A DNA stretch of 64,000 nucleotides, from NCBI GenBank assembly GCA_000002435.2, contig CM018789.1; one strand, given 5' to 3'. Below, piece by piece: positions 11,403-64,000 of the stretch. Origin of the DNA: Giardia intestinalis (lineage: Eukaryota). The notes under the pieces were generated by a model. It worked only from the letters and a program-made list of their open reading frames with translations, was not told the DNA's origin and did no database searches. How positions within the stretch are numbered: the first letter of the stretch is position 1; every line of letters begins with the position of its first letter. The position numbers and the translations under genes were made by a program.

Positions 11403-13577
11403 ATGCACGCTGCTTCGTCTGGATCCGCAACAATAGCTTTCAGTGTCCCACCGTTCACTCTCAGAGGGCTCTACAAGCAACTGAATGACGTGCTTAATGA
11501 AAGTCCCGCGGGAACAGTCTACTCTCTCAAGGATTATCTGGGCCTCGCCGTAAAGGAGGTCCTGCTCGACGGCCTGGACAAGGGGGATCTGGACACCATC
11601 AGACTAGAGCTGGCCACCCTTCTCGACCTCTCCCATCCGGGGGTCCTCAAGCACCATCAAGTGGTCGAGGATGATGACTTCATCTACGTCGTCACGGACC
11701 GCCACGACAAGACTCTCGAGTGCCTCCTCACTGAACACAAGCGAAGGAAGATCCCCGTCCCTATCGCTGTGATTCTCTCCGTCCTGAGGCAGGTCGCTGC
11801 CGCCCTCGCCTATCTCTACGGCCTCAGTGGGATAGGTACTAGGGGGCTCGTCCACCGCGACCTCAGGCCTGCCAATATATTTATCAGCGCAGATGGTGAG
11901 TACTTCGTCATCGCTGGTCTCGGCCTCTGCAGGAACGCCCTGAGAGGCGGGAGCATCACCGCGATAACAAGGCCGTACATGGCCCCCGAGGTGCTCCTCC
12001 ACAACGAGACCAGCCCTGCCTCCGATGTGTGGAGCCTCGGGGTCATCGTCTACGAGCTTACTATTCTGAGGAGACCGGACTTCCTAGAAGGTAAAGACCC
12101 AAAAGACGTCTTCGTTGACGGGTGGAGGCCGAACCTGAGCGGTGTCACCGATGGCTTCATAAAGAGCATTCTGGAAAGGATATTCGTGCTGGAGCCAGAG
12201 AGGAGGCCAACGGCCAAGGGACTGTGCGAGATGCTCGCCACAGCAGACATCCCAGTTAGTGAGCTGGGGCATCGGTGTGTGGCACTAGAAGACAAATGCA
12301 GCGCCTTGGAGGCTGCTTTGAACAGTGCTAATGCTAATATCGTGCTTCTGAAGGACGAGCTCAAGGTCGAGTCGGATAAGGTCACTGCTCTTGAGGCAGC
12401 CCTCGACGCCAGGTCTGCTGAGATTGCCTCTCTAAAGGGCGCTCTTGAGAACAGGCCAAGTGAGGCCGACGCCCTGGGACAGGAGCCCCGACTCAAGACC
12501 ACCAGGATCGACGCGCTTGAAGATCAGTGCAAGGAGTATTTAGCCATGATTAAGGCACTGGAGGATAAGCTTGCACAATCTAGTAGTGGGATGAACACGA
12601 GTAGCCCCCAGATCAACCTCTCCGCGCTGCCTCAACTGATATACGCTGCACACACGAATGACATGGAGACTGTCCAGATGCTGGCCAACGAGAAAGATTG
12701 TATCGGTCAGCGCGACGAGCGGGGGATGACGGCCCTCATGCATGCAGCCCAGCAGGGGCACGGTGGGCCTGTTGAGCTGCTTGTTAAGAAGGAAAAGGGC
12801 CTCAAAGATAAAAACGGCTGGACCGCGCTCATGCACGCCGCACACGGGAACCATCCTGAGGTAGCTAGGATTCTCATCCCTCATGAGCATGGGAGGAAGA
12901 GCAAGAACGGCCGTACTGCTCTGATGATTGCTGCACAGGAGGGCCATGCGGAGGCTGCTTCTGTTCTGGCTCCGTACGAGGAGGACCTGACCGACAGACA
13001 AGGCAACACGGCCCTGATCCTTGCGGCAGAGGCAGGACACGAAGCTGTGGTGGAGGCTCTCGACCCAACCGATGATAGGGGCGTCACAGCGCTCATGCGG
13101 GCCGCGAAAAGAAACGACACATTAGCAGTAAGCGCACTCATACCCGTCCAGAAGAAGCGATTGGCACCTACTGGGACAGCGCTAATACAAGCAGCAATAT
13201 GCGGCCACGTAGCAGCAGTACGACTGCTGATGCCATATGAGAGTAGGGCACGGGATGGTTGTGGTGCGACCGCCCTCATGAAGGCTGCCTCTGAGAATCA
13301 TGCAGAAGTAGTGCAGCTGTTGATGGAGCGCGAAGGCTGCATGCTGGATCCCCATGGCTTACCCGCTATCGTGCACGCAGCGTATGGCGGCCGCTTAGAG
13401 ATAGTGAAGCTGCTATTTGAAAAGGAGGGGCATCTAATAGACAAGTCTAATGAATCCTTCTTTGATAAGCTTGAGGCCAAGGGCTACTCTGAGATAGCAT
13501 CCTTCCTTAGGGACAGCCGTACACCGGGCGCCGATGACTGCAACGATCACCAAGCTGCTCCACGAGCTCACGAGTAA
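11403..13577 (+). CDS. NEK-like kinase with coiled-coil and ankyrin repeats (left inverted-repeat copy; probably catalytically impaired)
   Basis: The kinase domain keeps HRDLRPANIF and APE (YMAPEV) and has the lysine in LAVKEV, but the DFG motif is replaced by AGLGL. It continues into a coiled coil and then about 9 ankyrin repeats. First ATG at 11403; AGTAAAC overlaps the stop (13573..13579). Confidence 0.8.
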   Translation: MHAASSGSATIAFSVPPFTLRGLYKQLNDVLNESPAGTVYSLKDYLGLAVKEVLLDGLDKGDLDTIRLELATLLDLSHPGVLKHHQVVEDDDFIYVVTDRHDKTLECLLTEHKRRKIPVPIAVILSVLRQVAAALAYLYGLSGIGTRGLVHRDLRPANIFISADGEYFVIAGLGLCRNALRGGSITAITRPYMAPEVLLHNETSPASDVWSLGVIVYELTILRRPDFLEGKDPKDVFVDGWRPNLSGVTDGFIKSILERIFVLEPERRPTAKGLCEMLATADIPVSELGHRCVALEDKCSALEAALNSANANIVLLKDELKVESDKVTALEAALDARSAEIASLKGALENRPSEADALGQEPRLKTTRIDALEDQCKEYLAMIKALEDKLAQSSSGMNTSSPQINLSALPQLIYAAHTNDMETVQMLANEKDCIGQRDERGMTALMHAAQQGHGGPVELLVKKEKGLKDKNGWTALMHAAHGNHPEVARILIPHEHGRKSKNGRTALMIAAQEGHAEAASVLAPYEEDLTDRQGNTALILAAEAGHEAVVEALDPTDDRGVTALMRAAKRNDTLAVSALIPVQKKRLAPTGTALIQAAICGHVAAVRLLMPYESRARDGCGATALMKAASENHAEVVQLLMEREGCMLDPHGLPAIVHAAYGGRLEIVKLLFEKEGHLIDKSNESFFDKLEAKGYSEIASFLRDSRTPGADDCNDHQAAPRAHE

Positions 13578-13579
13578 AC
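13573..13579 (+). promoter_or_regulatory. Putative Giardia-type polyadenylation signal (AGTAAAC) overlapping a stop codon
   Basis: AGTRAAY motifs overlap or closely follow the stops of several + strand genes: 1465..1471, 13573..13579, 14494..14500, 20814..20820, 49693..49699, 53429..53435 and 56628..56634. Confidence 0.5.
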
Positions 13580-13739
13580 CCGTCGTTCCCTTCACGAGAA
13601 GCAGAAGGCCCTGGAGAACAGGCCATACGGACCAGCGCCCCATGCTTCTGGCCGTGCCAAAGTGCCATGAAACAGCGTCTCCAAGTTTTCTATCAATTAT
13701 GTCTTATGAAGAGCCGCGATCGCAATTGGGAGGCAAAGA

Positions 13740-14498
13740 ATGGCACTTATTGAGGCGGCCAAGGAGAACAGGCTGGACTACGTCAGGGCCCACAAGGCCG
13801 CGGACGCAGGCCAGAGGGACGCAGACGGGAAGACGGCGCTCATGTGGGCCGCCGAGGCCGGGCACACCGCCGTCGCCCTGGAGCTGGTCGACGCAGAGGC
13901 GGGCCTGGTCTCGAACGACGGGTCCTTCGCGCTGATCGCGGCGGCAAAGAGGGGGAACCTCGAGCTGATCCAGGCCCTTTTCGAGAAGGAGGGGAGGCTG
14001 CGGGACGCCGGCAAGCTCTCCGCCCTCAACCACGCCTCCAAGGCGAAGCAGTTCGAGGCGGCCAAGGTCCTCCGGCTGAAGACCATCGAGACGATGGACG
14101 CGGCGATGCTGGAGCAGCTCCGGCAGAGGGTCGCGGCCACCTACACCGAGATGGCCAAGAAGTCGCAGCAGGCCGAGGTCAAGAGCCACAACATGGCCAT
14201 CTTCCGCTCGTTCTTCGAGGCGTTCTACTTCCTCTCCTGCTCGGGGATCGACCAGGGGGCGGAGATCTCGGAGGAGCAGCTGAACAAGTCCCTCGAGAAG
14301 TGCCTGGGCGAGATCCGCAAGCTCCTCAACTCGAAGAAGTACACGAAGTGCGTGAAGTGCCGCGCCAACGCCCCCAACCTGGTCTGCATGCCGTGCAAGC
14401 ACTACGTCCTCTGCAAGGACTGCGGGAAGGACGTCGCCAGCAAGGTCTGTCCTGCTTGCAACAAGCCGGTCGAGGAGTTCATGGAGGTCTTCAAGTAA
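13740..14498 (+). CDS. Ankyrin-repeat protein with C-terminal RING-type zinc finger (left inverted-repeat copy)
   Basis: Ankyrin repeats (KTALMWAAEAGHTAVALELV...), a coiled linker, then CVKCRANAPNLVCMPCKHYVLCKDCGKDVASKVCPACNKP (C3HC4-like). GC3-rich codons. AGTAAAC overlaps the stop (14494..14500). The antisense and other-frame ORFs in the track here are GC artefacts. Confidence 0.75.
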   Translation: MALIEAAKENRLDYVRAHKAADAGQRDADGKTALMWAAEAGHTAVALELVDAEAGLVSNDGSFALIAAAKRGNLELIQALFEKEGRLRDAGKLSALNHASKAKQFEAAKVLRLKTIETMDAAMLEQLRQRVAATYTEMAKKSQQAEVKSHNMAIFRSFFEAFYFLSCSGIDQGAEISEEQLNKSLEKCLGEIRKLLNSKKYTKCVKCRANAPNLVCMPCKHYVLCKDCGKDVASKVCPACNKPVEEFMEVFK

Positions 14499-14996
14499 AC
14501 GCCAAGAGGTGCTCCACGTCTGCAGATGTCCACCTAGTCGGGGCTCACCAGTAGGATTGCTTTGGCAGCTGCGCCACGAACCACACAGGACAGAGACGCG
14601 GTGATTGGCGCAGCCCCAGAAGGAGCCAGCGGACGCGACCCGTGACAGTCTGACAGGACCAGATTTGTGAAGACGTCTGTCTCTACAAGCCCCTCCACCC
14701 AGCGGCCGTAGCCGAGACCCACCCTGGCCCTCTTTCCCATCAGTCCACCCAGGCAAGGTTTACTGTAGAACCGATGCTTCCCGCTGTTCAGTGTATTTGT
14801 TTGACTAAAGACACGCGGGTCCTTTTCAGATGCGGCTGCAGGACCATCCCGCGTGGAGCTGGGAGAGCGCAACGGCCTCCTCCGCCGCGTACTGCTCCGG
14901 GGCGTCGGCAGGCTGCTCTCGTAGAGCCAGCCGTGGTGGGCCAGCGCCAGCCGTCCTCGCTGCACGGGCTTATGGAGAGCTGGTAGATGAGCTTCG

Positions 14997-16740
14997 TCAG
15001 GTGCTCGCGGAAGGCGGGGAGGCCCTGCAGCTCGAACACCCCGTATATGCGCGAGTAGTCCCCGCCGCGAAGGGCAGTATGTGCTTGGCGATCTTCAGAA
15101 GCACGACGATGGACGAAAGGCTGTTGACCTTGGACAGCTGGTACCCCGGGAAGCTGCACGTGAGCGTGCCCGCCGTGTTCATGTTGGCGGGGCTGTTGGT
15201 GCTATGTCTCCGCGCAGGAACGCCATCAGGTTGGCCAGGTTGTTCGGGATGTACGCCGTCGGCGGCCTGGAGCCCCGCCCGGGACGCTCTGCGCCGCGGC
15301 CCCTGGCTGGCCGCCGTGCTGGAGGGCTGCAGGATGTGCGAGACGTAGCCGTAGAAGCAGCGCGACGCCGTCAGCAGGCAGAACAGCCGCCTGCCGCTCA
15401 CCAGGCTATGAAGGGGCCTCGCGGGGTCTAGCGCCGGGTCCGGCGGGGCGCCCTGCTTGGCGGGCCTGGCCTGCAGGAGGAGAAGGACGTGGAGGCAGCT
15501 CTTCAGCACAGACTCCCGGATGTGCCGCGTGGACGACGGGGTGTTGCTGGAGAACGCGCCCTTCTCGGCGTCCCTCGTCGTGCCCGCAGTCGCCTTGGCC
15601 GACAGGACCGTCTCCAGCATGTGGGGGACCCCACACAGCGCCAGGCGGAGCAGCGACGAGAGGAACGCCGGCATGTCGACCTCCCGGTTCAGGTGGTAGA
15701 GCTGGTGCCCCAGGACGCAGTCGGCCTCGTTGGAAATGCCGACGAGCATCGCCCGCTGGACGTCCAGGGGGAGCGCGTAGGCGAGCACGTTGACCAGCTC
15801 GTGGCACTTGATGCTGCGGAACCGCTCCTCGTGGTGGTTGAAGGACAGCGCCTTCTCTATGCACCGCTCGAAGTAGGGCAGATTGCCCTTCGCACCCGGC
15901 CTCCCCGAGAACGGGAAGGACGCGGTCAGCCCCCGCTTGACCCTGTTGAGGTACACGCGGTAGTCGCCGGTGGCCACCGCGTTGCCGAGGGTGCGCTCCA
16001 GCTCGGCGTCGTGCCCGCCGTGGAGGTCTGCCAGGGACTGCAGGCCGATCCGCACGTCCGGCCCGGGCGCCGCCTGTTGGGCTGGGGGCGTTGAAGGCCG
16101 TCATGACGCTTGCACACTCTGCCATCTGGTCTGCGACGCCCTTGTCGGCGTAGGGGAGACGTTGCCGGACGAGAAGGGGGCGGAAGCCGCTCGACGGTCT
16201 CGATCGCGCAGGACCCGGCGCTGCCCTGCTCCTCCAGGGCCATCCTGCGGATGCTCCGGCACGTCCGGGCCTGCTTGTGGCCGCCCAGGGGCCCAGGAGG
16301 AGGAGGAGCGCCTGCCTGGATCAGCTTGGAGAGCAGGCGCGCAAGGGCTGGACCAGGGCCCTGACGAAGCCTTCGAAGGTGCGGAGGCAGGGCAAGCAGT
16401 CGACCGAGCCGTCCAGGCGGTCGCAGACGGTGACCCCCCGCAGGTTCAGGGAGGCCAGCACAAGGTGCAGGACCTGGATGCAGTGGGCCAGGGGAGGCGG
16501 GAGCTGCTTGCTTGCGTTCTGCGTCGACTCCGCCCTCAGGTCCGAGAGGGAGGCCGCGCACTCGCCGGGACGCCGAACCGCTTGAGGACCTGCCTGAAAA
16601 GGGAGCCGCCGTTGTGGAGGAAGAGGAGGAGCGCCCGCCTCGCCTCGTCGGCGCCCATCTCGTCCTCGAAGAGCGAGAGGAACGACTCGCTGAGCTCGTA
16701 GATCGCCGGCTCCACGTCCGACCACACGACCGGGAGCGGG
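14997..16740 (-). pseudogene. GC-rich gene of unknown function, split over three reading frames (possible pseudogene or frameshifted gene; left copy)
   Basis: Protein-like segments occur on the minus strand in three frames (16727..16536 WSDVEPAIYELSESFLSLFEDEMGADEA...; 16563..16321 ...ASKQLPPPLAHCIQVLHLVLASLNLRGVTVC...; 16055..14997 MRIGLQSLADLHGG...352 aa). This implies at least 2 frameshifts, and both are also present in the right copy. Confidence 0.35.
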
Positions 16741-18325
16741 GCGGTCGTCCGGTTCTAGTCCAGGCTTCCGTCCCCCATGTTTGCGGTTTCATGGCCCGCG
16801 CGGCCCTCTGCCCCAATCCATAGGGCCATGGGCTTGAGCAGACGAGCGCTGCCCATTCATCCTCTACTATACGTTTCCACGGATGGCACCGTTCGCGGCA
16901 GGGGCACTGAAGCCTCAGGCGTTCCTCTCTGCCAACAACCATGAACTACGGTAAGGTCCTGACTAGGCTGGAAGGCGCTCTGGCGGTGGCACGGGCAACT
17001 GCTAGACCCGCCCGCATCGGCCTCTGGTCATGAAGGCGAGCTGGCCCTTCCTTGGTGTGTCCTCCATACTAGTGGGACTTGCCGCGCTTCCCCCTCACGT
17101 GCAGCCAAAGGCCATGGCCGACGTCCGCACTGGTCATATAGCCGACCTCCGCGACTCTGGTGGCAGCGTGCTTGCTCGCTTATTCCACGAGGCATGGGCA
17201 TGGTAGTTACCGGCCTTGCTGCACAGCTCTTGACGGCGCCTTCCAGCCATTGCATCGGCCAGCTGTGCTACTTACAAGAAGCTCGCGCGCGTTCCCAACG
17301 TTGCAGCAACGCACGCTTGATCCCCGGCGGTGATTACTTTCATTAGTGGTGGTGCCCGCTCCGTCTCTAATCTGGTGTCGAACACACCAAGGATGATAGC
17401 GGCGCCACTCACGTTGCCGACGACTGCTTTATCCTGGCTTCTCAGATTGAAGGAGTGCTCTTGCTGGGCGTGGGCTCCCACGCTCCCCTTCATGGCCTCC
17501 TGGCCCTGTGCAATCTCTTCCTGGAAAAACGATATGCTGCTGTGCGCGATGTCGTGCACGGCATGTCGCCGAAGCAATAGCAGGGCTGCGCAATCATGCA
17601 TCCACTTGGTGGGCTACATGACTTGGCCCGCCATGCTTCTCTGTGCCTTCTTGTCAGTGCTAAGCGGGCACCCTTACGACGGCCAGCGCCTATGCGGCTG
17701 CGTGTCTATTCAGCGTATTTGCTCGCGTCATTATCGATTTACCGTACTTGGTCTCCTCATTGAGCTCTGCAATTGTCAGCTGCCACAGAGCGAGGCAGGT
17801 TCTTACTCTGCCCGAGGGCGATTATTGTGGGAAGCTCCATGCAAAGAACGACTCCACAGCGGCTCAGTTTGTTATATGGACAGCTGGCAACCCGAGTTGT
17901 TCGTGGGGGAGACAGTGCCACAGACACATACCCTCTTCTCTCAATTCTAACAAGCAATCTTACAAGACCAGGAACAGAAGATTGCTGTCCATGAGGGCGG
18001 CTCTAAACTGCTCGGCGCATACAATGCACTCGAGAAGAGGCCTCCTGAAGATGTGCTGGTAGGCGCGGAATCGGACGGTCCGATCGAGACGCCGTCCCTG
18101 GCAGCCGCTGGTTCTCCTAGGGGCGACGAGCCCCATGCCCCCGATGGACTCCTACTTCCAAAGCCCCAGCCGGCAACGCCTGATGCCTCCAGGTGCTCCT
18201 CTCAAACTGACAGATTAAGGAAGTACTATGTTGAGCTAGCAGCCATGCATAGGCAGATTACCGTACTTCAGTCTTCCGTACGCGAATCAGAGACAGAGTG
18301 CGTGCCAGTTCTTAGATCCTTGTAG

Positions 18326-20800: not shown

Positions 20801-20933
20801 ATTAGCATATGCTAGTAAATCCACAGAGCGCTTGCGTAGACAGGTAGCAGGGCGATCGACACCCCGCAGAAACGAGTCTTTTGCGGTCAGTGACACCTAA
20901 ATTGTTGGATTGAGGCTCTGTCATAATAAAAGC

Positions 20934-21761: not shown

Positions 21762-21788
21762 AGGCTATGACGGCAGAGCTATAACAGC

Positions 21789-22328
21789 TCAGGTGGAGCC
21801 GAACTCCGCTGTGAACTTCGCTATGCGCGACTTGTCAGCTTGGGAGACGCTCGACTTCACGGCTGCCTTGGCACGCAACAGGCTACTCACAGTGACATAG
21901 GGAACCGTCAGCTTATCGTTGGGAATATCCATAAAGTCTTTCTTCTCAGCGCCGGGCATGTCTGATGCTGAAACCTCGTACATGCCTGTGATCTTATTGA
22001 GGCGGAAGTAGGACACCTTCTGCAACACGCGCACGGGGTCCATGAGAGCTTCCTTGCACAATATGCTGAGGTCAGAGCCAGAGTAGTTCTCTGTTTGCTG
22101 TCCGAGCTCAGTGATATCCTCATCTGCTAGCACATTGGGCGTAGTGCCGATGCAATTCTTTATGATATTTGCTCTGGCAGCGGCGTCTGGGAGGACGATC
22201 TCGATGCGCTTCTCGAAGCGGCGGCGGATCTCCACCCAGGCCCCCTTGAACGGCAACTGTGCGGCCAATCCACGAGCAGCTTTCTGTGCAACAATCACAA
22301 GTGGGGCCTGTACACAATGCAATGAGGG
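21789..22328 (-). pseudogene. VPS4-like AAA ATPase, C-terminal fragment only
   Basis: ...VEIRRRFEKRIEIVLPDAAARANIIKNCIGTTPNVLADEDITELGQQTENYSGSDLSILCKEALMDPVRVLQKV...AKFTAEFGST aligns with the VPS4 C-terminal region from RRFEKRIYIPLP to the end. There is an in-frame stop at 22331..22329 and no Walker A/B or MIT region upstream. Confidence 0.7.
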
Positions 22329-49687: not shown

Positions 49688-49711
49688 AAGCGAGTGAACA
49701 AATTTAAAAAA

Positions 49712-55283: not shown

Positions 55284-55324
55284 AATTACCAACCTCTTTT
55301 AAAAAAGATCGTTTCATTGTACCC

Positions 55325-56602
55325 ATGACAGCAAAAGATCTTACTGAGCCGTATAAAAAGGGGCTAATCTTCATGGCATGCTGTCGGGAAGACATAGGGA
55401 CTCCATTGGAGAACACTCCGCGGCCTGTTAGAATCTATGATAGCCGCGAAGACCCCACAGCTCGCGGGAGCTACGAGTATTATGTTTATTTTGGAGGGTA
55501 CAACGCCCGCTTGGCGGATTGGTACCCGTCATCGGCCTTACGAAGCATTACAGATGAAGAAAGGCAATTATACGCAAAAGAAATATGGTTTTTTAGCCAG
55601 GCAGACAAGGAATTTCTGCCCAGGAATATAGATAAAGTGGTGATCTCTCAGTACGTGATGTGTCCGTGGTACTTCTCGCCACTCCCCGAGGAGTTTTTTG
55701 CCTCCAGAACTGTCTACATCTGCGAGTATTGCTTCACCATGTTGACCACTGAGCGGATCTACAAGCGCCATGTGGCCCGGTGCACCTGTAGATCACCACC
55801 TGGTGACCTCATATATAGAGATGACGAAGTCTGCTTCTTTGAAATCAACGGCAGTGAGCATACTAACTATTGCCGTAATATATGCCTAGTTGCGCGGCTT
55901 TTCCTGCAGCATAAAACATTGGTGGCAGACGTAGATGTCTTCCTCTTTTATGTTATGTTTGCAAAAACCAACAACAAAAAGGCTAATAACCAACAACTAT
56001 CGGCAGCCCAGAAGGCTTCCGATGAACAAGAACAAAGAGCTCACTGCGAGCCTGAAATAAAGCGGATACCCGATTGGCAACAGACGGGACCGGGTGATCA
56101 GGACGATGACTCATACCATTTTGTAGGATTTTTCTCCAAAGAGAAACAGCAAGAAAATAGTCTCAGCTGCATTGTTGCACTTCCATGCTTTCAGAAGAAA
56201 GGATATGGAAATATGATGATAAACTTTTCGTACATGCTCAGTAGCCGTGAATGTAGACTCGGAGGACCTGAGATGCCCCTGTCGGACCTTGGCCTCATGT
56301 CCTACTTAAGTTATTGGAAGCGCCGAATTTGCGAAGTGCTGGTTCGCAACACCACTTCAGAAATCAGCCTTTTCGAGATTAGTAAGCAAACAATGATCAG
56401 CTACCGCAATCTAATCATGGCAATGAATAAGTACGGGCTTCTGAAAGAAACACCGTCAAATACCGCTATTTACTTTGGAAACGAACTAGCAGATGAGTTG
56501 CGCACGTGTTTAGAGAAGGAGGAAAAACGCGGAGTACACCGTCTTGAAGACAAGTACCTCCATTGGGTCCCATATGTCAACATGTGTTACGAGTACAAAT
56601 AG
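55325..56602 (+). CDS. MYST-family histone acetyltransferase
   Basis: C2HC zinc finger CEYCFTMLTTERIYKRHVARC, MYST core FEINGSEHTNYCRNICLVARLFLQHKTL and FLFYVM, and acetyl-CoA-binding motif LPCFQKKGYGNMMINFSYMLS; ATG at 55325. Confidence 0.85.
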   Translation: MTAKDLTEPYKKGLIFMACCREDIGTPLENTPRPVRIYDSREDPTARGSYEYYVYFGGYNARLADWYPSSALRSITDEERQLYAKEIWFFSQADKEFLPRNIDKVVISQYVMCPWYFSPLPEEFFASRTVYICEYCFTMLTTERIYKRHVARCTCRSPPGDLIYRDDEVCFFEINGSEHTNYCRNICLVARLFLQHKTLVADVDVFLFYVMFAKTNNKKANNQQLSAAQKASDEQEQRAHCEPEIKRIPDWQQTGPGDQDDDSYHFVGFFSKEKQQENSLSCIVALPCFQKKGYGNMMINFSYMLSSRECRLGGPEMPLSDLGLMSYLSYWKRRICEVLVRNTTSEISLFEISKQTMISYRNLIMAMNKYGLLKETPSNTAIYFGNELADELRTCLEKEEKRGVHRLEDKYLHWVPYVNMCYEYK

Positions 56603-59229
56603 TCAACGTAGACTGCAAAGTTGTCCAAGTAAATCCCCCTCGCGAGTCGCTGCACTGGACTGGCTACCTCTCGCTCGCTCCCATCAAAGTCCAGAATCTG
56701 AAACTCAAATGTCAGCCAACTCCGATGGAAGAAGAACTCTTATGCTTCGTCTCCCCAGGAAGCCGCTGCTCCTCACGTTACCTCTAAGGTTTCTCCCATC
56801 CTCTGGCTAGCTTGGAGCAACCACCACCTGGCACCGGTGGGCACCTGCTGTCTCGAGCCTTGCGTCGGTCACAGCAGTCTGGCCTCGAGAGCAATTGACT
56901 CTGGCCATGTACTCCGGAGTAGCTTTGTAGTGTTGGTGCTCTACGACAAAGATCACACGCCACGGCCCCGGGTGCCTACCCCGTTCCTCGGGGTGCCTCT
57001 TCGTCTCTTCGTGGAGGGCACCATCTGTTCCATTATCAAGGGTGCGATTCCCGTACGCCTCTATCTTGGAATCATAGTACGCGTTCGTGGATGTCGATGG
57101 AGTACTCCCATGCGCTGGTATCAGGGGAGAGGCCCATCCCTCTGCTCATGGATCGCAGAGGTGCTCCGTCACCCAGCACGAGACCGCGTCGACGCTCACC
57201 CTGTGCAGTGCGTCTGGCTCAGTGATGTGTGAGCTGGTCCATCTGCACAGCACACTTGGGGTGATGCTTCGGTCTGTCGAGGCGTCGTCCAAAGCACCAG
57301 GAGCAATCAGGACCGGTTCGCTGTCAGGTCGTCTCTCTACAATCGGCACTCGTCTACTCGAGGGTGTCAGGCACTGCCAGCTGCTGCGGCAGATGCTCGG
57401 CAGGTGGCCCAGGCCGCCACTCTCCGGTGCGGGCAGGATCAGTCCGCTTCTACCAACCAGACACCCCAACTCCTATTTCTTGCCGAGGGATTCATATGGG
57501 TCACGTGTGGGTCCGTCTCGACAAGCGGGGCGAGTGATTGGTGCCATTGCCAGCCTCGGACGCTCATCTGCATTCGCTATCACCTCGAGGGAGGGGGCAT
57601 AAATCTTCCCCGTCAGAACTGGACGACATCCGACTTTCGGATTCTGGGTCTCAGCTAGTGAACGAGCGAGAGACTGCCAGCCTGGGGCGGCGGTGGCTCG
57701 CATGGAGGACCTGTTCAGGCAACAGCTGACAAACTAGTCTCAGTGCAATAAGGTAACTGGCTAGTTTGAGAGGAGCACCTGGAGGCATCAGGCGTTGCCG
57801 GCTGGGGCTTTGGAAGTAGGAGTCCATCGGGGGCATGGGGCTCGTCGCCCCTAGGAGAACCAGCGGCTGCCAGGGACGGCGTCTCGATCGGACCGTCCGA
57901 TTCCGCACCTACCAGCACATCTTCAGGAGGCCTCTTCTCGAGTGCATTGTATGCGCCGAGCAGTTTAGAGCCGCCCTCATGGACAGCAATCTTCTGTTCC
58001 TGGTCTTGTAAGATTGCTTGTTAGAATTGAGAGAAGAGGGTATGTGTCTGTGGCACTGTCTCCCCCACGAACAACTCGGGTTGCCAGCTGTCCATATAAC
58101 AAACTGAGCCGCTGTGGAGTCGTTCTTTGCATGGAGCTTCCCACAATAATCGCCCTCGGGCAGAGTAAGAACCTGCCTCGCTCTGTGGCAGCTGACAATT
58201 GCAGAGCTCAATGAGGAGACCAAGTACGGTAAATCGATAATGACGCGAGCAAATACGCTGAATAGACACGCAGCCGCATAGGCGCTGGCCGTCGTAAGGG
58301 TGCCCGCTTAGCACTGACAAGAAGGCACAGAGAAGCATGGCGGGCCAAGTCATGTAGCCCACCAAGTGGATGCATGATCGCGCAAGGGTCATCCTTCCCA
58401 CGTATATGAGCTCTTGACGCCTACGTGGGTGCATTCGACTCCTGCACAGCTCCTGATAATTATAGGCCTTTATCACCCGTAGCCCTGCTATTACTTCGGT
58501 GACATGCCGTGCACGGACATCGCGCGCAGCAGCATATCGTTTTTCCAGGAAGGGATTGCACAGGGCCAGGAGGCCATGAAGGGGAGCGTGGGAGCCCACG
58601 CCCAGCAAGAGCACTCCTTCAATCTGAGAAGCCAGGATAAAGCAGTCGTCGGCAACGTGAGTGGCGCCGCTATCATCCTTGGTGTGTTCGACACCAGATT
58701 AGAGACGGAGCGGGCACCACCACTAATGAAAGTAATCACCGCCGGGGATCAAGCGTGCGTTGCTGCAACGTTGGGAACGCGCGCGAGCTTCTTGTAAGTA
58801 GCACAGCTGGCCGATGCAATGGCTGGAAGGCGCCGTCAAGAGCTGTGCAGCAAGGCCGGTAACTACCATGCCCATGCCTCGTGGAATAAGCGAGCAAGCA
58901 CGCTGCCACCAGAGTCGCGGAGGTCGGCTATATGACCAGTGCGGACGTCGGCCATGGCCTTTGGCTGCACGTGAGGGGGAAGCGCGGCAAGTCCCACTAG
59001 TATGGAGGACACACCAAGGAAGGGCCAGCTCGCCTTCATGACCAGAGGCCGATGCGGGCGGGTCTAGCAGTTGCCCGTGCCACCGCCAGAGCGCCTTCCA
59101 GCCTAGTCAGGACCTTACCGTAGTTCATGGTTGTTGGCAGAGAGGAACGCCTGAGGCTTCAGTGCCCCTGCCGCGAACGGTGCCATCCGTGGAAACGTAT
59201 AGTAGAGGATGAATGGGCAGCGCTCGTCT

Positions 59230-60960
59230 GCTCAAGCCCATGGCCCTATGGATTGGGGCAGAGGGCCGCGCGGGCCATGAAACCGCAAACATGGGGGACG
59301 GAAGCCTGGACTGGAACCGGACGACCGCCCCGCTCCCGGTCGTGTGGTCGGACGTGGAGCCGGCGATCTACGAGCTCAGCGAGTCGTTCCTCTCGCTCTT
59401 CGAGGACGAGATGGGCGCCGACGAGGCGAGGTGGACGCTCCTCCTCTTCCTCCACAACGGCGGCTCCCTTTTCAGGCGGGTCCTCAAGCGGTTCGGCGTC
59501 CCGGCGAGTGCGCGGCCTCCCTCTCGGACCTGAGGGCGGAGTCGACGCAGAACGCAAGCAAGCAGCTCCCGCCTCCCCTGGCCCACTGCATCCAGGTCCT
59601 GCACCTTGTGCTGGCCTCCCTGAACCTGCGGGGGGTCACCGTCTGCGACCGCCTGGACGGCTCGGTCGACTGCTTGCCCTGCCTCCGCACCTTCGAAGGC
59701 TTCGTCAGGGCCCTGGTTCAGCCCTTGCGCGCCTGCTCTCCAAGCTGATCCAGGCAGGCGCTCCTCCTCCTCCTGGGCCCCTGGGCGGCCACAAGCAGGC
59801 CCGGACGTGCCGGAGCATCCGCAGGATGGCCCTGGAGGAGCAGGGCAGCGCCGGGTCCTGCGCGATCGAGACCGTCGAGTGGCTTCCGCCCCCTTCTCGT
59901 CCGGCAACGTCTCCCCTACGCCGACAAGGGCGTCGCAGACCAGATGGCAGAGTGTGCAAGCGTCATGACGGCCTTCAACGCCCCCAGCCCAACAGGCGGC
60001 GCCCGGGCCGGACGTGCGGATCGGCCTGCAGTCCCTGGCAGACCTCCACGGCGGGCACGACGCCGAGCTGGAGCGCACCCTCGGCAACGCGGTGGCCACC
60101 GGCGACTACCGCGTGTACCTCAACAGGGTCAAGCGGGGGCTGACCGCGTCCTTCCCGTTCTCGGGGAGGCCGGGTGCGAAGGGCAATCTGCCCTACTTCG
60201 AGCGGTGCATAGAGAAGGCGCTGTCCTTCAACCACCACGAGGAGCGGTTCCGCAGCATCAAGTGCCACGAGCTGGTCAACGTGCTCGCCTACGCGCTCCC
60301 CCTGGACGTCCAGCGGGCGATGCTCGTCGGCATTTCCAACGAGGCCGACTGCGTCCTGGGGCACCAGCTCTACCACCTGATCCGAGAGGTCGACATGCCG
60401 GCGTTCCTCTCGTCGCTGCTCCGCCTGGCGCTGTGCGGGGTCCCCCACATGCTCGAGACGGTCCTGTCGGCCAAGGCGGCTGCGGGCACGACGAGGGACG
60501 CCGAGAAGGGCGCGTTCTCCAGCAACACCCCGTCGTCCACGCGGCACATCCGGGAGTCTGTGCTGAAGAGCTGCCTCCACGTCCTTCTCCTCCTGCAGGC
60601 CAGGCCCGCCAAGCAGGGCGCCCCGCCGGACCCGGCGCTAGACCCCGCGAGGCCCCTTCATAGCCTGGTGAGCGGCAGGCGGCTGCTCTGCCTGCTGACG
60701 GCGTCGCGCTGCTTCTACGGCTACGTCTCGCACATCCTGCAGTCCTCCAGCACGGCGGCCAGCCAGGGGCCGCGGCGCAGAGCGTCCCGGGCGGGGCTCC
60801 AGGCCGCCGACGGCGTACATCCCGAACAACCTGGCCAACCTGATGGAGTTCCTGCGCGGAGACAATAGCACCAACAACCCCGCCAACATAAGCACGGCGG
60901 GCACGCTCACGTGCAGCTTCCCGGGGTACCAGCTGTCCAAGGTCAACAGCCTTTCGTCCA
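59230..60960 (+). pseudogene. Right-arm copy of the GC-rich frameshifted gene
   Basis: It has the same protein-like segments as 14997..16740 (-). It shares the two upstream frameshifts with the left copy and has an additional copy-specific frameshift (...GVPARRQ* followed by ...NNPANISTAGTLTC in another frame, against contiguous ...GVPARRHSTNSPANMNTAGTLTC in the left copy). Confidence 0.35.
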
Positions 60961-61571
60961 TCGTCGTGCTTCTGAAGATCGCCAAGCACATACTGCCCTT
61001 CGCGGCGGGGACTACTCGCGCATATACGGGGTGTTCGAGCTGCAGGGCCTCCCCGCCTTCCGCGAGCACCTGACGAAGCTCATCTACCAGCTCTCCATAA
61101 GCCCGTGCAGCGAGGACGGCTGGCGCTGGCCCACCACGGCTGGCTCTACGAGAGCAGCCTGCCGACGCCCCGGAGCAGTACGCGGCGGAGGAGGCCGTTG
61201 CGCTCTCCCAGCTCCACGCGGGATGGTCCTGCAGCCGCATCTGAAAAGGACCCGCGTGTCTTTAGTCAAACAAATACACTGAACAGCGGGAAGCATCGGT
61301 TCTACAGTAAACCTTGCCTGGGTGGACTGATGGGAAAGAGGGCCAGGGTGGGTCTCGGCTACGGCCGCTGGGTGGAGGGGCTTGTAGAGACAGACGTCTT
61401 CACAAATCTGGTCCTGTCAGACTGTCACGGGTCGCGTCCGCTGGCTCCTTCTGGGGCTGCGCCAATCACCGCGTCTCTGTCCTGTGTGGTTCGTGGCGCA
61501 GCTGCCAAAGCAATCCTACTGGTGAGCCCCGACTAGGTGGACATCTGCAGACGTGGAGCACCTCTTGGCGT

Positions 61572-62330
61572 TTACTTGAAGACCTCCATGAACTCCTCGA
61601 CCGGCTTGTTGCAAGCACGACAGACCTTGCTGGCGACGTCCTTCCCGCAGTCCTTGCAGAGGACGTAGTGCTTGCACGGCATGCAGACCAGGTTGGGGGC
61701 GTTGGCGCGGCACTTCACGCACTTCGTGTACTTCTTCGAGTTGAGGAGCTTGCGGATCTCGCCCAGGCACTTCTCGAGGGACTTGTTCAGCTGCTCCTCC
61801 GAGATCTCCGCCCCCTGGTCGATCCCCGAGCAGGAGAGGGAGTAGAACGCCTCGAAGAACGAGCGGAAGATGGCCATGTTGTGGCTCTTGACCTCGGCCT
61901 GCTGCGACTTCTTGGCCATCTCGGTGTAGGTGGCCGCGACCCTCTGCCGGAGCTGCTCCAGCATCGCCGCGTCCATCGTCTCGATGGTCTTCAGCCGGAG
62001 GACCTTGGCCGCCTCGAACTGCTTCGCCTTGGAGGCGTGGTTGAGGGCGGAGAGCTTGCCGGCGTCCCGCAGCCTCCCCTCCTTCTCGAAAAGGGCCTGG
62101 ATCAGCTCGAGGTTCCCCCTCTTTGCCGCCGCGATCAGCGCGAAGGACCCGTCGTTCGAGACCAGGCCCGCCTCTGCGTCGACCAGCTCCAGGGCGACGG
62201 CGGTGTGCCCGGCCTCGGCGGCCCACATGAGCGCCGTCTTCCCGTCTGCGTCCCTCTGGCCTGCGTCCGCGGCCTTGTGGGCCCTGACGTAGTCCAGCCT
62301 GTTCTCCTTGGCCGCCTCAATAAGTGCCAT
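61572..62330 (-). CDS. Ankyrin-repeat + RING-finger protein (right inverted-repeat copy)
   Basis: 252 aa, differing from 13740..14498 at about 2 positions (YSLSCSG against YFLSCSG; KVCRACNKP against KVCPACNKP). Confidence 0.75.
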   Translation of the reverse strand: MALIEAAKENRLDYVRAHKAADAGQRDADGKTALMWAAEAGHTAVALELVDAEAGLVSNDGSFALIAAAKRGNLELIQALFEKEGRLRDAGKLSALNHASKAKQFEAAKVLRLKTIETMDAAMLEQLRQRVAATYTEMAKKSQQAEVKSHNMAIFRSFFEAFYSLSCSGIDQGAEISEEQLNKSLEKCLGEIRKLLNSKKYTKCVKCRANAPNLVCMPCKHYVLCKDCGKDVASKVCRACNKPVEEFMEVFK

Positions 62331-62492
62331 TCTTTGCCTCCCAATTGCGATCGCGGCTCTTCATAAGACATAATTGATAGAAAACTTGGAGACGCTGTTT
62401 CATGGCACTTTGGCACGGCCAGAAGCATGGGGCGCTGGTCCGTATGGCCTGTTCTCCAGGGCCTTCTGCTTCTCGTGAAGGGAACGACGGGT

Positions 62493-64000
62493 TTACTCGT
62501 GAGCTCGTGGAGCAGCTTGGTGATCGTTGCAGTCATCGGCGCCCGGTGTACGGCTGTCCCTAAGGAAGGATGCTATCTCAGAGTAGCCCTTGGCCTCAAG
62601 CTTATCAAAGAAGGATTCATTAGACTTGTCTATTAGATGCCCCTCCTTTTCAAATAGCAGCTTCACTATCTCTAAGCGGCCGCCATACGCTGCGTGCACG
62701 ATAGCGGGTAAGCCATGGGGATCCAGCATGCAGCCTTCGCGCTCCATCAACAGCTGCACTACTTCTGCATGATTCTCAGAGGCAGCCTTCATGAGGGCGG
62801 TCGCACCACAACCATCCCGTGCCCTACTCTCATATGGCATCAGCAGTCGTACTGCTGCTACGTGGCCGCATATTGCTGCTTGTATTAGCGCTGTCCCAGT
62901 AGGTGCCAATCGCTTCTTCTGGACGGGTATGAGTGCGCTTACTGCTAATGTGTCGTTTCTTTTCGCGGCCCGCATGAGCGCTGTGACGCCCCTATCATCG
63001 GTTGGGTCGAGAGCCTCCACCACAGCTTCGTGTCCTGCCTCTGCCGCAAGGATCAGGGCCGTGTTGCCTTGTCTGTCGGTCAGGTCCTCCTCGTACGGAG
63101 CCAGAACAGAAGCAGCCTCCGCATGGCCCTCCTGTGCAGCAATCATCAGAGCAGTACGGCCGTTCTTGCTCTTCCTCCCATGCTCATGAGGGATGAGAAT
63201 CCTAGCTACCTCAGGATGGTTCCCGTGTGCGGCGTGCATGAGCGCGGTCCAGCCGTTTTTATCTTTGAGACCCTTCTCCTTCTCAACAAGCAGCTTGACA
63301 GGACCAATGTGCCCCTGCTGGGCCGCGTGCATGAGGGCCGTCATCCCCCGCTCGTCGCGCTGACCGATACAATCTTTCTCGTTGGCCAGCATCTGGACAG
63401 TCTCCATGTCATTCGTGTGTGCAGCGTATATCAGTTGAGGCAGCGCGGAGAGGTTGATCTGGGGGCTACTCGTGTTCATCCCACTACTAGATTGTGCAAG
63501 CTTATCCTCCAGTGCCTTAATCATGGCTAAATACTCCTTGCACTGATCTTCAAGCGCGTCGATCCTGGTGGTCTTGAGTCGGGGCTCCTGTCCCAGGGCG
63601 TCGGCCTCACTTGGCCTGTTCTCAAGAGCGCCCTTTAGAGAGGCAATCTCAGCAGACCTGGCGTCGAGGGCTGCCTCAAGAGCAGTGACCTTATCCGACT
63701 CGACCTTGAGCTCGTCCTTCAGAAGCACGATATTAGCATTAGCACTGTTCAAAGCAGCCTCCAAGGCGCTGCATTTGTCTTCTAGTGCCACACACCGATG
63801 CCCCAGCTCACTAACTGGGATTTCTGCTGTGGCGAGCGTCTCGTGCAGCTCCCTGGCCGTCGGCCTCCTCTCTGGCTCCAGCACGAATATCCTTTCCAGA
63901 ATGCTCTTTATGAAGCCATCAGTGACACCGCTCAGGTTCGGCCTCCACCCGTCAACGAAGACGTCTTTTGGGTCTTTACCTTCTAGGAAGTCCGGTCTCC
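62493..64000 (-). CDS. NEK-like kinase/ankyrin protein (right inverted-repeat copy, 5' end beyond window)
   Basis: Stop at 62493; near-identical to the C-terminal 500 or so residues of 11403..13577 (a few substitutions, for example QQGHIGPVKLLVEKEKG against QQGHGGPVELLVKKEKG). The kinase domain start lies beyond position 64000. Confidence 0.75.
   Translation of the reverse strand, partial: RPDFLEGKDPKDVFVDGWRPNLSGVTDGFIKSILERIFVLEPERRPTARELHETLATAEIPVSELGHRCVALEDKCSALEAALNSANANIVLLKDELKVESDKVTALEAALDARSAEIASLKGALENRPSEADALGQEPRLKTTRIDALEDQCKEYLAMIKALEDKLAQSSSGMNTSSPQINLSALPQLIYAAHTNDMETVQMLANEKDCIGQRDERGMTALMHAAQQGHIGPVKLLVEKEKGLKDKNGWTALMHAAHGNHPEVARILIPHEHGRKSKNGRTALMIAAQEGHAEAASVLAPYEEDLTDRQGNTALILAAEAGHEAVVEALDPTDDRGVTALMRAAKRNDTLAVSALIPVQKKRLAPTGTALIQAAICGHVAAVRLLMPYESRARDGCGATALMKAASENHAEVVQLLMEREGCMLDPHGLPAIVHAAYGGRLEIVKLLFEKEGHLIDKSNESFFDKLEAKGYSEIASFLRDSRTPGADDCNDHQAAPRAHE

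What the first reader, a model, noticed from the sequence alone, without database searches (positions are those of the whole stretch)
12069..64000. Large near-perfect inverted duplication (at least 6.1-kb arms) bracketing a 39.5-kb core gene block
The reverse complement of 57763..64000 matches 18209..12069 at about 99% identity; ORF-coordinate sums stay at about 76069 across 6 kb. Each arm carries the same three genes: a NEK-ankyrin gene, an ankyrin-RING gene and a GC-rich frameshifted gene. The right arm runs off the window, so the true arm length is unknown. The 39.5-kb spacer (18210..57762) holds housekeeping genes (ABC, GCL, two kinesins, MCM, RPN1, HAT), so this is not a mobile-element cargo. 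It looks like an inverted segmental duplication, and homologous recombination between arms of this size and identity could flip the whole core block. The high identity implies either a recent event or ongoing gene conversion. A few copy-specific differences (a 98-bp indel near 58390..58500, a 1-bp indel and scattered substitutions) argue against a trivial assembly copy-paste, but a chimeric or collapsed assembly remains possible.
Basis: seen in the sequence. Interest (0 to 1): 0.8.

Follow-up and report, generated by a model that had tools for sequence, protein, structure and literature searches.

The report
Inverted segmental duplication in Giardia chromosome
Two near-identical, oppositely oriented copies (at least 7.9 kb each) of a kinase/ankyrin gene cluster flank about 40 kb of the Giardia intestinalis WB reference chromosome; the duplication is real, belongs to a kind already reported for this genome, and could in principle let the middle block flip, which remains untested.

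Summary
Window 12070-18208 matches the reverse complement of 57763-64000 with 41 substitutions (0.67%), a 97-bp indel and a few 1-bp indels.

The window is Giardia intestinalis WB C6, from the 1.49-Mb chromosome of the 2020 PacBio reference. Annotated proteins show the right arm continues past the window through a complete NEK kinase and an ankyrin gene. The arms are therefore at least 7.85 kb.

Each arm carries ARP-1, NEK and ARP-2 (ankyrin-RING). It also carries two GC-rich decayed pseudogenes, not one frameshifted gene:
- a relic of a conserved diplomonad protein;
- the 5' membrane domain of an ABC transporter.

The repeat ends inside that ABC gene. The left arm runs on into the rest of the gene. 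The right arm stops and abuts 1.16 kb of orphan DNA, so it looks like a truncated secondary copy.

The "core" is a mosaic. Only about 23.0-56.6 kb is conserved housekeeping synteny.

Both arms carry derived alleles, some shared with other isolates, plus clustered conversion-like patches. This argues against an assembly copy-paste.

Multi-gene duplications rich in NEK/ARP genes are already reported for this genome. Flipping by homologous recombination is plausible (Giardia lacks NHEJ) but is not shown. It is a new member of a known kind, of modest interest.

The parts
12070..18208 (.). Left arm, the part whose partner lies inside the window
   Evidence: 99.2% identical to the reverse complement of 57763-64000
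10356..12069 (.). Left arm, inferred outer extension (partner lies beyond base 64000)
   Evidence: The right-arm NEK KAE8301251 (805 aa) is identical to the left copy over its first 352 aa. The right-arm ARP-1 KAE8301252 (246 aa) is 100% identical to window 10356-11096. The true outer end is unknown.
57763..64000 (.). Right arm (runs off the window)
10200..11096 (+). ARP-1 ankyrin-repeat gene, left copy (GL50803_112937 / KAE8301230)
   Evidence: Pfam Ank_2; exact match to XP_001704388.1
11160..13577 (+). NEK kinase with ankyrin repeats, left copy (KAE8301231, 805 aa, intact)
   Evidence: Pfam Pkinase + Ank; exact match to P0102
13740..14498 (+). ARP-2 ankyrin + C3HC4 RING gene, left copy (KAE8301232, 252 aa)
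   Evidence: exact match to P0040
14829..16856 (-). psiX, left copy: GC-rich (about 63-65%), frameshifted and internally deleted relic of a conserved diplomonad protein of about 1055-1088 aa
   Evidence: The phmmer search found G. muris GMRT_14080, Hexamita and Spironucleus homologues. tblastn shows pieces in three frames covering about 2.0 kb instead of about 3.2 kb.
16775..18208 (+). psiABC 5' part, left copy (N-terminus + TMD1 + linker of an ABCC-like transporter); many in-frame stops up to about 17330
18209..20800 (+). Rest of the ABC gene (NBD1-TMD2-NBD2), just outside the left arm; in-frame TAG at 18323-18325; annotated as the 747-aa 'Xenobiotic-transporting ATPase' KAE8301233
20832..21761 (+). 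310-aa hypothetical gene (309-aa protein in isolate DH)
   Evidence: tblastn 97% identity
21789..22229 (-). Vps4 C-terminal fragment (147 aa, 100% identical to DH Vps4 residues 309-455), truncated at 22229 inside the AAA SRH motif
22232..22779 (+). VSP pseudogene 3' fragment (Cys-rich repeats + TM tail) fused to the Vps4 fragment
   Evidence: Pfam PF03302 VSP, E 8e-40; sequence
23064..56602 (.). Conserved single-copy housekeeping block (GCL, kinesin-14, dynein light chain, a second kinesin, a 2842-aa protein, MCM, RPN1, an ankyrin protein, MYST HAT)
   Evidence: Pfam. 100%-identical 34-kb short-read contigs span 22704-56917. Synteny with an assemblage-B-like contig was shown directly only for 45370-56606.
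56607..57762 (.). Segment D: 1.16 kb of orphan DNA between the HAT stop codon and the right arm; no homologue found
57763..59294 (-). psiABC 5' fragment, right copy, ending abruptly at the arm boundary; carries the 97-bp segment
   Evidence: ABC_membrane hit for ORF 58021-58614
58385..58481 (.). 97-bp segment present in the right arm and in all other isolates examined, deleted in the left arm at 17586/17587
59213..61241 (+). psiX, right copy
61572..62330 (-). ARP-2, right copy (KAE8301250, 2 aa different from the left copy)
62493..64000 (-). NEK, right copy (3' 502 codons; the gene continues beyond the window; KAE8301251)
12209..12248 (.). Conversion-like patch 1 (7 substitutions + 2 indels; changes 5 aa)
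12743..12800 (.). Conversion-like patch 2 (10 substitutions in 58 bp; changes 3 aa)

Best explanation
This is a genuine inverted segmental duplication (an inverted low-copy repeat pair) on the 1.49-Mb chromosome of Giardia intestinalis WB (sub-assemblage AI).

Structure. The repeated unit is at least 7.85 kb. It carries lineage-specific multigene-family genes (ARP-1, NEK kinase, ARP-2 RING), all intact in both copies. These are followed by two GC-rich decayed pseudogenes: psiX and the 5' TMD1 part of an ABC transporter. The unit ends in the TMD1-NBD1 linker of the ABC gene.

Which copy is original. The left copy sits in the ancestral context. Its outer flank is syntenic with assemblage E, and its inner end runs on into the rest of the ABC gene. 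The right copy is a truncated secondary copy. It lies next to 1.16 kb of orphan filler, on the far side of a conserved housekeeping block.

Origin (inferred). One or more homology- or replication-driven rearrangements occurred in the assemblage-A lineage, because Giardia lacks NHEJ. The same set of events left a Vps4 fragment fused to a VSP pseudogene at 22229.

Divergence since then. The arms have diverged by point changes on both copies, by short ectopic conversion tracts from other paralogues, and by a 97-bp deletion in the left arm.

Function. The structure has no dedicated machinery. It is a passive substrate for homologous recombination. It doubles the dosage of three family genes. It could undergo arm-to-arm gene conversion or a crossover that inverts the 39.5-kb spacer. 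Because both arms hold the same dead ABC 5' end, such an inversion would change no gene. The structure itself is shown; its origin and any flipping are inferred.
For: Repeat geometry and identity.

Provenance and gene identities: exact protein matches to WB C6 KAE83012xx entries on a 1,485,438-bp contig.

Arm extension: NEK 797/805 aa identical, with all 8 differences in two patches, and ARP-1 246/246 identical.

Arm content: Pfam, psiX homologues, ABC frame analysis.

Left copy in ancestral context:
- The P15 (assemblage E) contig runs CFAP45-TBCC-ARP-1.
- A2-like contigs L014 and L019 run psiX-TMD1-97bp-ABC-309aa gene-Vps4 without a break.

Right side non-ancestral: in an assemblage-B-like contig HAT is followed directly by IFT20 and other core genes. 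Synteny with the window stops at 56606.

Real copies rather than an artefact:
- About 13 left-derived and about 12 right-derived changes relative to the A2-like outgroup.
- Right-arm alleles at 17568, 17575 and 17592, plus the 97-bp segment, are shared with independent AI isolates.
- Strongly non-random clustering: 10 substitutions in 58 bp, Bonferroni P about 1e-7; a 1429-bp difference-free stretch, P about 0.003.
- Two ARP-1 copies were already annotated in the 2007 Sanger assembly.

Timing: arm-to-arm divergence is 0.67%, against 2.4-2.6% to A2-like sequence.

Context from the literature:
- 6.9% of the WB genome is duplicated, with multi-gene duplications up to 20 kb that often contain multigene-family members; separately, synteny between isolates breaks at regions rich in cysteine-rich protein, NEK and ARP families (PMC7000408).
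- Giardia lacks NHEJ and recombines with arms of 150 bp or more (PMC9042576).
Against: - No read-level data could be examined, so linkage of each arm to its flanks rests on the published PacBio/optical-map assembly.
- The right arm's outer end and right flank lie outside the window and could not be fetched.
- The 2007 annotation held only one NEK copy, with the sequence that is now in the right arm, attached to the left flank. The older assembly therefore collapsed the arms or linked them differently.
- Arm divergence (0.67%, about 0.3% without the patches) exceeds the WB-versus-AI-isolate divergence in the adjacent ABC segment (0.03-0.45%). Yet those isolates' k-mer contigs cross the left junction as if the inner arm were single-copy there. 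The dating is therefore not clean.
- WB keeps all three intact Vps4 paralogues according to PMC10758263. At least the Vps4 fragment, and possibly more of 18209-22229, has another copy elsewhere. The A2 contigs may be orthologous to that locus rather than to this one.
Confidence: 0.8

Rival explanations
1. Assembly artefact. The two arms are one locus, or two allelic haplotypes of the tetraploid, mis-joined or copied by the long-read assembler. The inverted repeat would then not exist on one DNA molecule.
For: - The 2007 assembly had a single NEK copy.
- Exact look-ups of two ORFs at or near the right junction found nothing in public short-read assemblies.
- Xu et al. note that 20 kb is about the limit of what their reads could resolve.
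Against: - The arms differ at 41 sites plus indels in a structured, polarised pattern. Both carry derived alleles, and some alleles are shared with independent isolates.
- WB allelic heterozygosity is reported as about 0.01% (PMC7048089), about 70 times lower than the arm divergence.
- Two ARP-1 copies were annotated independently in 2007.
- The ABC-to-GCL gene order is also implied by consecutive 2007 accession numbers.
- The arms (8-10 kb) are within PacBio read length.
- Short-read contigs of WB-like samples stop on both sides of the single-copy block, as expected for flanking repeats.
Confidence: 0.06
2. The inverted repeat is the scar of an inversion or rearrangement, not a pre-existing substrate. 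Staggered breaks or replication-based template switching (BIR/MMBIR) that moved the housekeeping block would have generated the inverted duplicate at the breakpoint in the same event.
For: - The right copy is truncated at an arbitrary point inside a gene and joined to 1.16 kb of filler with no homologue.
- A second non-homologous fusion (Vps4 fragment to VSP tail) lies at the other side of the conserved block.
- Both edges of the conserved block break synteny with other assemblages.
- Giardia lacks NHEJ, which favours replicative repair.
- From general knowledge (Ranz et al. 2007), inverted duplications flanking inversions are the signature of the staggered-break model in Drosophila.
Against: - A simple two-break staggered inversion predicts that one arm-spacer junction is novel on the side where the arm keeps its ancestral outer flank. 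Here left flank, left arm and ABC all look ancestral, so at least three breaks are needed.
- The location of the displaced partners (IFT20 block, full Vps4 block) in WB could not be checked.
Confidence: 0.3
3. An actively flip-flopping invertible segment. Both orientations of the 39.5-kb block would coexist among the four genome copies, the two nuclei or the cells of a culture, through frequent crossover between the arms.
For: - Arms of at least 7.85 kb at 99.3% identity far exceed the 150-bp homology that suffices for recombination in Giardia.
- ONT data predicted 162 intra-isolate inversions in AWB, mean length 19.4 kb (PMC7048089).
- The NEK variant linked to the left flank in the 2007 annotation is today's right-arm variant.
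- A 1429-bp identical stretch and the mosaic pattern fit arm-to-arm exchange.
Against: - There is no direct evidence of a second orientation.
- The 2007/2020 swap is equally well explained by a collapsed Sanger consensus.
- The arms have kept 41 private differences, so homogenisation is not intense.
- The reference assembly gave a single path, reported as consistent with the optical map at chromosome scale.
- The supplements of PMC7048089 did not mention the local gene ids.
Confidence: 0.12
4. A mobile element. The arms would be terminal inverted repeats of a giant composite transposon, or retrotransposon-associated repeats, carrying the spacer as cargo.
For: - The inverted-repeat geometry.
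- Giardia has GilM/GilT/GilD retrotransposons, and RT remnants lie between some inverted VSP pairs.
Against: - No transposase, integrase or RT domain in any arm ORF.
- The arm genes are ordinary NEK/ARP family genes and pseudogenes.
- The left arm is in syntenic context.
- Most of the spacer is syntenic housekeeping DNA.
- No Rfam or tRNA features.
Confidence: 0.02

Closest known systems
Multi-gene segmental duplications of the Giardia intestinalis WB genome (Xu, Jex & Svard 2020, Sci Data 7:38, PMC7000408)
   Same: Same organism and assembly. The paper reports that 6.9% of the genome is duplicated, with multi-gene duplications up to 20 kb that often contain members of multigene families. It separately reports that synteny between isolates breaks at regions rich in cysteine-rich protein, NEK and ARP families. 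This pair fits on size, content (NEK, ARP-1, ARP-2) and location at a synteny break.
   Different: The paper does not describe this pair, its inverted orientation, the 39.5-kb spacer, or the truncation inside an ABC gene.
Inverted low-copy repeats that mediate NAHR inversions in humans, e.g. the 11.3-kb repeats flanking the 48-kb FLNA-EMD region on Xq28 (Small et al. 1997; own knowledge)
   Same: Very similar geometry: arms of about 8-11 kb at 99% identity or more, flanking about 40-48 kb of housekeeping genes. An inversion would be gene-neutral because the breakpoints fall inside the repeats.
   Different: In humans both orientations are documented as a common polymorphism. Here no second orientation has been observed. 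The organism is a tetraploid, binucleate protist with no demonstrated meiosis.
Inverted VSP gene pairs of Giardia (Xu et al. 2020, Table 2)
   Same: Inverted, near-identical duplicated genes in the same genome. One such pair has a NEK gene between the copies.
   Different: Those pairs are single VSP genes 2.6-12.4 kb apart. Here the arms hold no VSP, contain several genes, and are 39.5 kb apart.
Inverted duplications at inversion breakpoints (staggered-break model, Drosophila; Ranz et al. 2007; own knowledge)
   Same: A block flanked by inverted copies of sequence that was single-copy at one breakpoint. The secondary copy is truncated at an arbitrary site.
   Different: Junction polarity here does not fit a simple two-break event. 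Extra filler and a second fusion junction imply a more complex history.
Large palindromes or inverted repeats kept alike by arm-to-arm gene conversion (human Y palindromes, plastid IRs; own knowledge)
   Same: High arm identity, with long stretches free of differences.
   Different: Identity is lower here (99.3% against 99.9% or more). The spacer is several times the arm length. The arms have also taken up foreign conversion patches.

Membership tests
Segmental duplication / low-copy repeat | Two copies of at least 1 kb at 90% identity or more, not a transposable element | tested here: met
   6139 bp visible at 99.3%, at least 7.85 kb inferred; no TE domains
Giardia WB multigene-family duplications (Xu 2020) | Duplicated block containing NEK/ARP or Cys-rich family genes, up to about 20 kb, in a region where synteny between isolates breaks | tested here: met
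   ARP-1, NEK and ARP-2 in each arm. Synteny with A2, B-like and E contigs breaks at 22229, 56606 and near 10.9 kb.
NAHR-type invertible region | Inverted orientation, arms of several kb, 97% identity or more | tested here: met
NAHR-type invertible region | Both orientations of the spacer observed in cells, isolates or reads | not testable with these tools
   No read data are available. The WB chromosome and other long-read assemblies could not be fetched. Only an indirect hint exists: the NEK variant swap between the 2007 and 2020 annotations.
Conversion-homogenised palindrome | Arm-to-arm gene conversion that keeps the arms nearly identical | tested here: inconclusive
   The mosaic pattern (1429-bp identical stretch, P about 0.003; clustered patches) fits conversion. 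However, 41 private differences persist, and the patches look like input from third-party paralogues.
Composite transposon / TIR element | Recombinase (transposase, integrase or RT) encoded in the arms or cargo | tested here: not met
   Pfam scans of all arm ORFs and of the large spacer ORFs (150 aa or more), plus the ORFs of segment D, found none
Composite transposon / TIR element | Target-site duplication at the outer ends | not testable with these tools
   The right outer end lies beyond the window.
Giardia inverted VSP pairs | The duplicated unit is a VSP gene | tested here: not met
   No VSP domain in the arms. The only VSP sequence is a pseudogene tail at 22232-22779, in the spacer.

The most novel reading that the evidence does not exclude
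The 39.5-kb block really does flip. Orientation would be mosaic among the four genome copies, between the two nuclei, or between laboratory sublines of WB C6. The exchange of arm-specific NEK variants between the 2007 and 2020 assemblies would be a trace of crossover or conversion between the arms. That would give a sequence-resolved, PCR-scorable readout of mitotic (or cryptic meiotic) crossover in an organism whose sexual cycle is still debated.
Probability: 0.12. Interest if true: 0.6.

Novelty: new member of a known kind. Interest (0 to 1): 0.33.

Why it matters
The structure is in the reference genome of a major human parasite. Anyone mapping reads, calling variants or designing knock-outs for the NEK, ARP-1, ARP-2 or 'Xenobiotic-transporting ATPase' genes here needs three facts. 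These genes sit in a two-copy inverted repeat, and ARP-2 has six copies. The ABC gene is broken, and its 5' end is duplicated. The block between the arms could differ in orientation between sublines. Because Giardia repairs breaks only by homologous recombination, pairs like this are natural reporters of ectopic recombination rate. Beyond that, it is an ordinary example of the duplication-rich, family-gene-rich synteny breaks already described for Giardia.

Tried and rejected
- Rfam at gathering thresholds found nothing. ARAGORN found no tRNA. So the GC-rich arm segment is not rDNA or another known RNA gene.
- The mobile-element reading was rejected for lack of any recombinase or RT domain.
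- Exact look-ups of the two ARP-2 copies and of two right-side ORFs (one spanning the right junction, one inside segment D) returned nothing. The WB chromosome record is not in that index, so sequence beyond base 64000 could not be obtained.
- Two scans of JGI metagenome contigs, one for the right junction and one for the inner arm end, found nothing.
- Segment D (56607-57762) has no Pfam, BLASTN or TBLASTX match to the window or to any fetched locus.
- No donor for the two NEK conversion patches exists inside the window.
- The supplements of Pollo et al. 2020 do not mention GL50803_112937 or GL50803_13372.
- GC-biased gene conversion was considered as the cause of the 62-65% GC. Among the 23 polarised recent changes, 14 are GC-to-AT and 7 are AT-to-GC, so there is no current signal. 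The idea stays speculative.
- One wide literature search was uninformative.
- The ends of AI-isolate contigs at 22202 fall 27 nt short of the WB breakpoint at 22229. I could not decide whether they reflect a second copy of the ABC segment or a k-mer shared among Vps4 paralogues.

Full report
**Observation**

The inverted match is real. The repeat finder reports three collinear inverted segments covering 12070-18208 and 57763-64000. A self-BLAST gives 99.20% over 5524 columns plus 99.2% over the innermost about 630 bp, and finds no other repeat in the window.

A global alignment lists 41 substitutions in 6139 bp (0.67%). It also shows a 97-bp segment present only in the right arm (58385-58481, left-arm site 17586/17587) and a few 1-bp indels. 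Similarity stops sharply at ...CTCTCAAACT | after 18208 and 57763. The left limit of 12070 exists only because the right arm hits the window end.

**Provenance**

Exact protein look-ups place the window in Giardia intestinalis WB clone C6. It lies on a 1,485,438-bp contig of the 2020 PacBio reference, with proteins KAE8301227 to KAE8301252. By size this is the smallest chromosome.

**Arm anatomy (left-arm coordinates)**

- ARP-1 ankyrin gene, 10200/10356-11096 (+).
- NEK kinase with ankyrin repeats, 11160-13577 (+), 805 aa.
- ARP-2 ankyrin + RING, 13740-14498 (+), 252 aa.
- A 3.4-kb stretch of 62-65% GC with no annotated protein.

It is two divergently oriented pseudogenes.

- On the minus strand, 14829-16856 is a relic ("psiX") of a conserved diplomonad protein. 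Its homologues include G. muris GMRT_14080 (1055 aa), Hexamita inflata, Spironucleus salmonicida, P15 GLP15_3774, and intact 1062-1088-aa versions in unnamed read-set assemblies. The pieces lie in three frames and span only about 2.0 kb instead of about 3.2 kb.
- On the plus strand, 16775-18208 is the N-terminus, first membrane domain and linker of an ABCC-like ABC transporter (ABC_membrane hits; N-terminus located with P0082). It is riddled with stops up to about 17330.

**The arms are longer than the window shows**

The right-arm NEK (KAE8301251) is a complete 805-aa protein, 797/805 identical to the left copy. The first 352 residues, mostly encoded beyond base 64000, are identical. The next gene, right-arm ARP-1 (KAE8301252, 246 aa), is 100% identical to window 10356-11096.

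The arms are therefore at least 7.85 kb. The outer boundary is unknown. The GC-rich, fast-evolving domain starts near 8.06 kb, where identity to assemblage E drops from 86.5% to about 70-75%. That hints at arms of up to about 10 kb, but it does not prove it.

**The inner boundary cuts a gene, and the spacer is a mosaic**

The left arm runs straight into NBD1-TMD2-NBD2 of the same ABC gene (18209-20800). In frame 2 the sequence reads ...SSQT|DRLRK...GSGKSS. The gene is itself broken by stops at 17948-17950 and, in WB and other AI isolates, by a TAG at 18323-18325 inside NBD1. The right arm ends at the same nucleotide and abuts unrelated DNA.

The spacer has four parts:
1. 18209-22229 holds the rest of the ABC gene, a 310-aa gene and the last 147 codons of a Vps4 gene.
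2. At 22229, inside the AAA SRH motif, this is fused to the tail of a VSP pseudogene at 22232-22779 (PF03302, E 8e-40).
3. 23064-56602 is a conserved housekeeping block: GCL, two kinesins, dynein light chain, MCM, RPN1 and a MYST HAT.
4. 56607-57762 ("segment D") has no detectable relative.

**Comparative evidence**

- In assemblage E (P15), CFAP45 is followed by a TBCC gene and then ARP-1, where the contig ends. The outer part of the left arm is therefore in its ancestral place.
- In A2-like sequences (DH contig AHGT01000062 and an ENA metagenome scaffold), psiX, the arm-type TMD1, the 97-bp segment, ABC, the 309-aa gene and a full Vps4 are contiguous. Continuity across 18208/18209 is therefore ancestral, the 97-bp deletion is peculiar to the WB left arm, and the 22229 fusion is derived.
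- In an assemblage-B-like contig, HAT is followed directly by IFT20 and further core genes. Synteny with the window ends at 56606. Segment D and the right arm are therefore not ancestral neighbours of the block.
- WB-like short-read contigs (100% identical) span only 22704-56917, as expected if both sides are repeated.
- In 26-29 read sets from other assemblage-A isolates, single k-mer contigs cross 18209. This suggests the inner right arm is absent or different there.
- Those contigs carry, outward of about 17.5 kb, a different version of the ABC 5' end: 80% identity, 48.6% GC and an intact 451-aa ORF. I cannot explain this version.

**Pattern of arm differences**

The differences are far from uniform. 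There are 10 substitutions in 58 bp (Bonferroni P about 1e-7) and a 1429-bp stretch with none (P about 0.003). All eight NEK amino-acid differences fall in two patches with about 15% local divergence. These are typical of short ectopic conversion from diverged paralogues, but no donor lies in the window.

Polarising 15004-18208 with the A2-like outgroup gives about 13 left-derived and about 12 right-derived changes. The right arm shares three alleles and the 97-bp segment with the ABC-adjacent copy of other AI isolates. Arm divergence (0.67%) is about a quarter of the divergence to A2-like sequence (2.4-2.6%).

ARP-2 exists in six near-identical copies on three chromosomes. NEK has only the two arm copies.

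**Real or artefact?**

The evidence favours two real copies:
- the structured, polarised differences;
- alleles shared with independent isolates;
- two ARP-1 genes already annotated in 2007;
- the ABC-to-GCL order implied by consecutive 2007 accessions;
- the arm size, which is within PacBio read length.

One caveat is also a lead. The 2007 annotation contains only one NEK, placed next to the left flank (EukProt P000563-565). Its sequence equals today's right-arm copy. This reflects either a collapsed Sanger consensus or a different linkage of arm variants.

**Mechanism**

What is shown: an inverted low-copy repeat pair with a truncated secondary copy, plus filler and a second fusion junction at the edges of a conserved block.

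What is inferred:
- Origin by homology- or replication-driven rearrangement. Giardia lacks NHEJ and repairs breaks by homologous recombination, for which 150-bp arms suffice (PMC9042576).
- Subsequent point mutation, ectopic conversion and a deletion.
- The arms are ample substrate for arm-to-arm conversion or a crossover that inverts the spacer.

Because both arms carry the same dead ABC 5' end, inversion would alter no coding sequence. No tool here could test for a second orientation. Published ONT analysis predicts many intra-isolate inversions in WB (162, mean length 19.4 kb; PMC7048089), but I could not link any of them to this locus.

**Comparison with what is known, and novelty**

Xu et al. 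2020 already report that 6.9% of this genome is duplicated, with multi-gene duplications up to 20 kb that often contain members of multigene families. They also report that synteny between isolates breaks at regions rich in cysteine-rich protein, NEK and ARP families. This pair is a specific, undescribed instance.

Its geometry closely resembles human NAHR inversion substrates such as the FLNA-EMD repeats (own knowledge). I rate it a new member of a known kind, with modest interest. The flip-flop reading is the only route to higher interest, and it is untested.

**Limits**

- The history of the wider repeat family, the alternative ABC 5' haplotype and the exact dating remain unresolved.

Noticed in passing
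window 8060-9700: Assemblage E (P15) has an intact 275-aa TBCC-domain gene between CFAP45 and ARP-1. WB shows only 69-72% nucleotide similarity there, 59% GC, and no TBCC-like ORF (only a 20-aa tblastn match). The gene appears decayed or lost at this locus.
   Followed up: partly
window 21789-22779: A Vps4 C-terminal fragment (147 aa, 100% identical to DH Vps4) is fused at 22229, inside the AAA SRH motif, to a VSP pseudogene tail (PF03302, ending GGLVGFLCRRET*). A paper reports that WB keeps all three intact Vps4 paralogues, so this is an extra partial copy and marks another duplication edge.
   Followed up: partly
window 14829-16856 and 59213-61241: psiX is the decayed relic of a protein conserved in G. 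muris, Hexamita and Spironucleus. No intact orthologue is annotated in WB, DH or GS. P15 has a 686-aa version, and unnamed read-set assemblies hold intact 1062-1088-aa versions. This may be a gene being lost within G. intestinalis.
   Followed up: partly
L003-L012, L015 (positions about 1-1000) versus window 16838-17587: Some AI isolates are 99.6-99.97% identical to WB in the ABC gene. Yet they carry an alternative ABC 5' end that is only 80-88% identical to the WB/A2 arm type. It has normal GC (48.6% against 62%) and an intact 451-aa TMD1 ORF. Contigs of other isolates (L007, L012, L016, L017) break exactly where the two types diverge. The origin (paralogue conversion, introgression or a second locus) is unexplained.
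   Followed up: partly
NEK proteins P0102/P0103 (window 11160-13577; 62493-64000): The 2007-annotation NEK that sat beside the left flank has the sequence now found in the right arm. The left-arm variant has only 2020 accessions.
   Followed up: partly
ARP-2 proteins P0040, P0042, P0043, P0048, P0049, P0050: There are six near-identical ARP-2 copies in WB, two on each of three chromosomes. An F/S dimorphism (…EAFYFLSCS / …EAFYSLSCS) splits the pairs on the 1.49-Mb (this window) and 4.02-Mb chromosomes, while both 2.76-Mb copies carry S. This suggests copying of pairs or conversion between chromosomes.
   Followed up: no
window 17948-17950, 18323-18325, about 17999: The ABC transporter annotated as the 747-aa 'Xenobiotic-transporting ATPase' is broken. 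A TAA ends the TMD1 ORF in all assemblage-A sequences examined. A TAG interrupts NBD1 in WB and other AI isolates. A2 isolates differ from WB by a 4-bp indel near 17999.
   Followed up: yes
window 56787-57762: WB-like short-read contigs end at 56787 or 56917, about 0.85-1 kb before the right arm. Part of orphan segment D is therefore probably repeated elsewhere in the genome.
   Followed up: no
window 8000-18200 and 57800-64000: A GC-rich domain (55-65% against about 45% in the core block) coincides with the arms and with the decayed genes (TBCC, psiX, ABC 5'). Recent polarised changes are AT-biased, so GC-biased conversion is not currently evident.
   Followed up: partly
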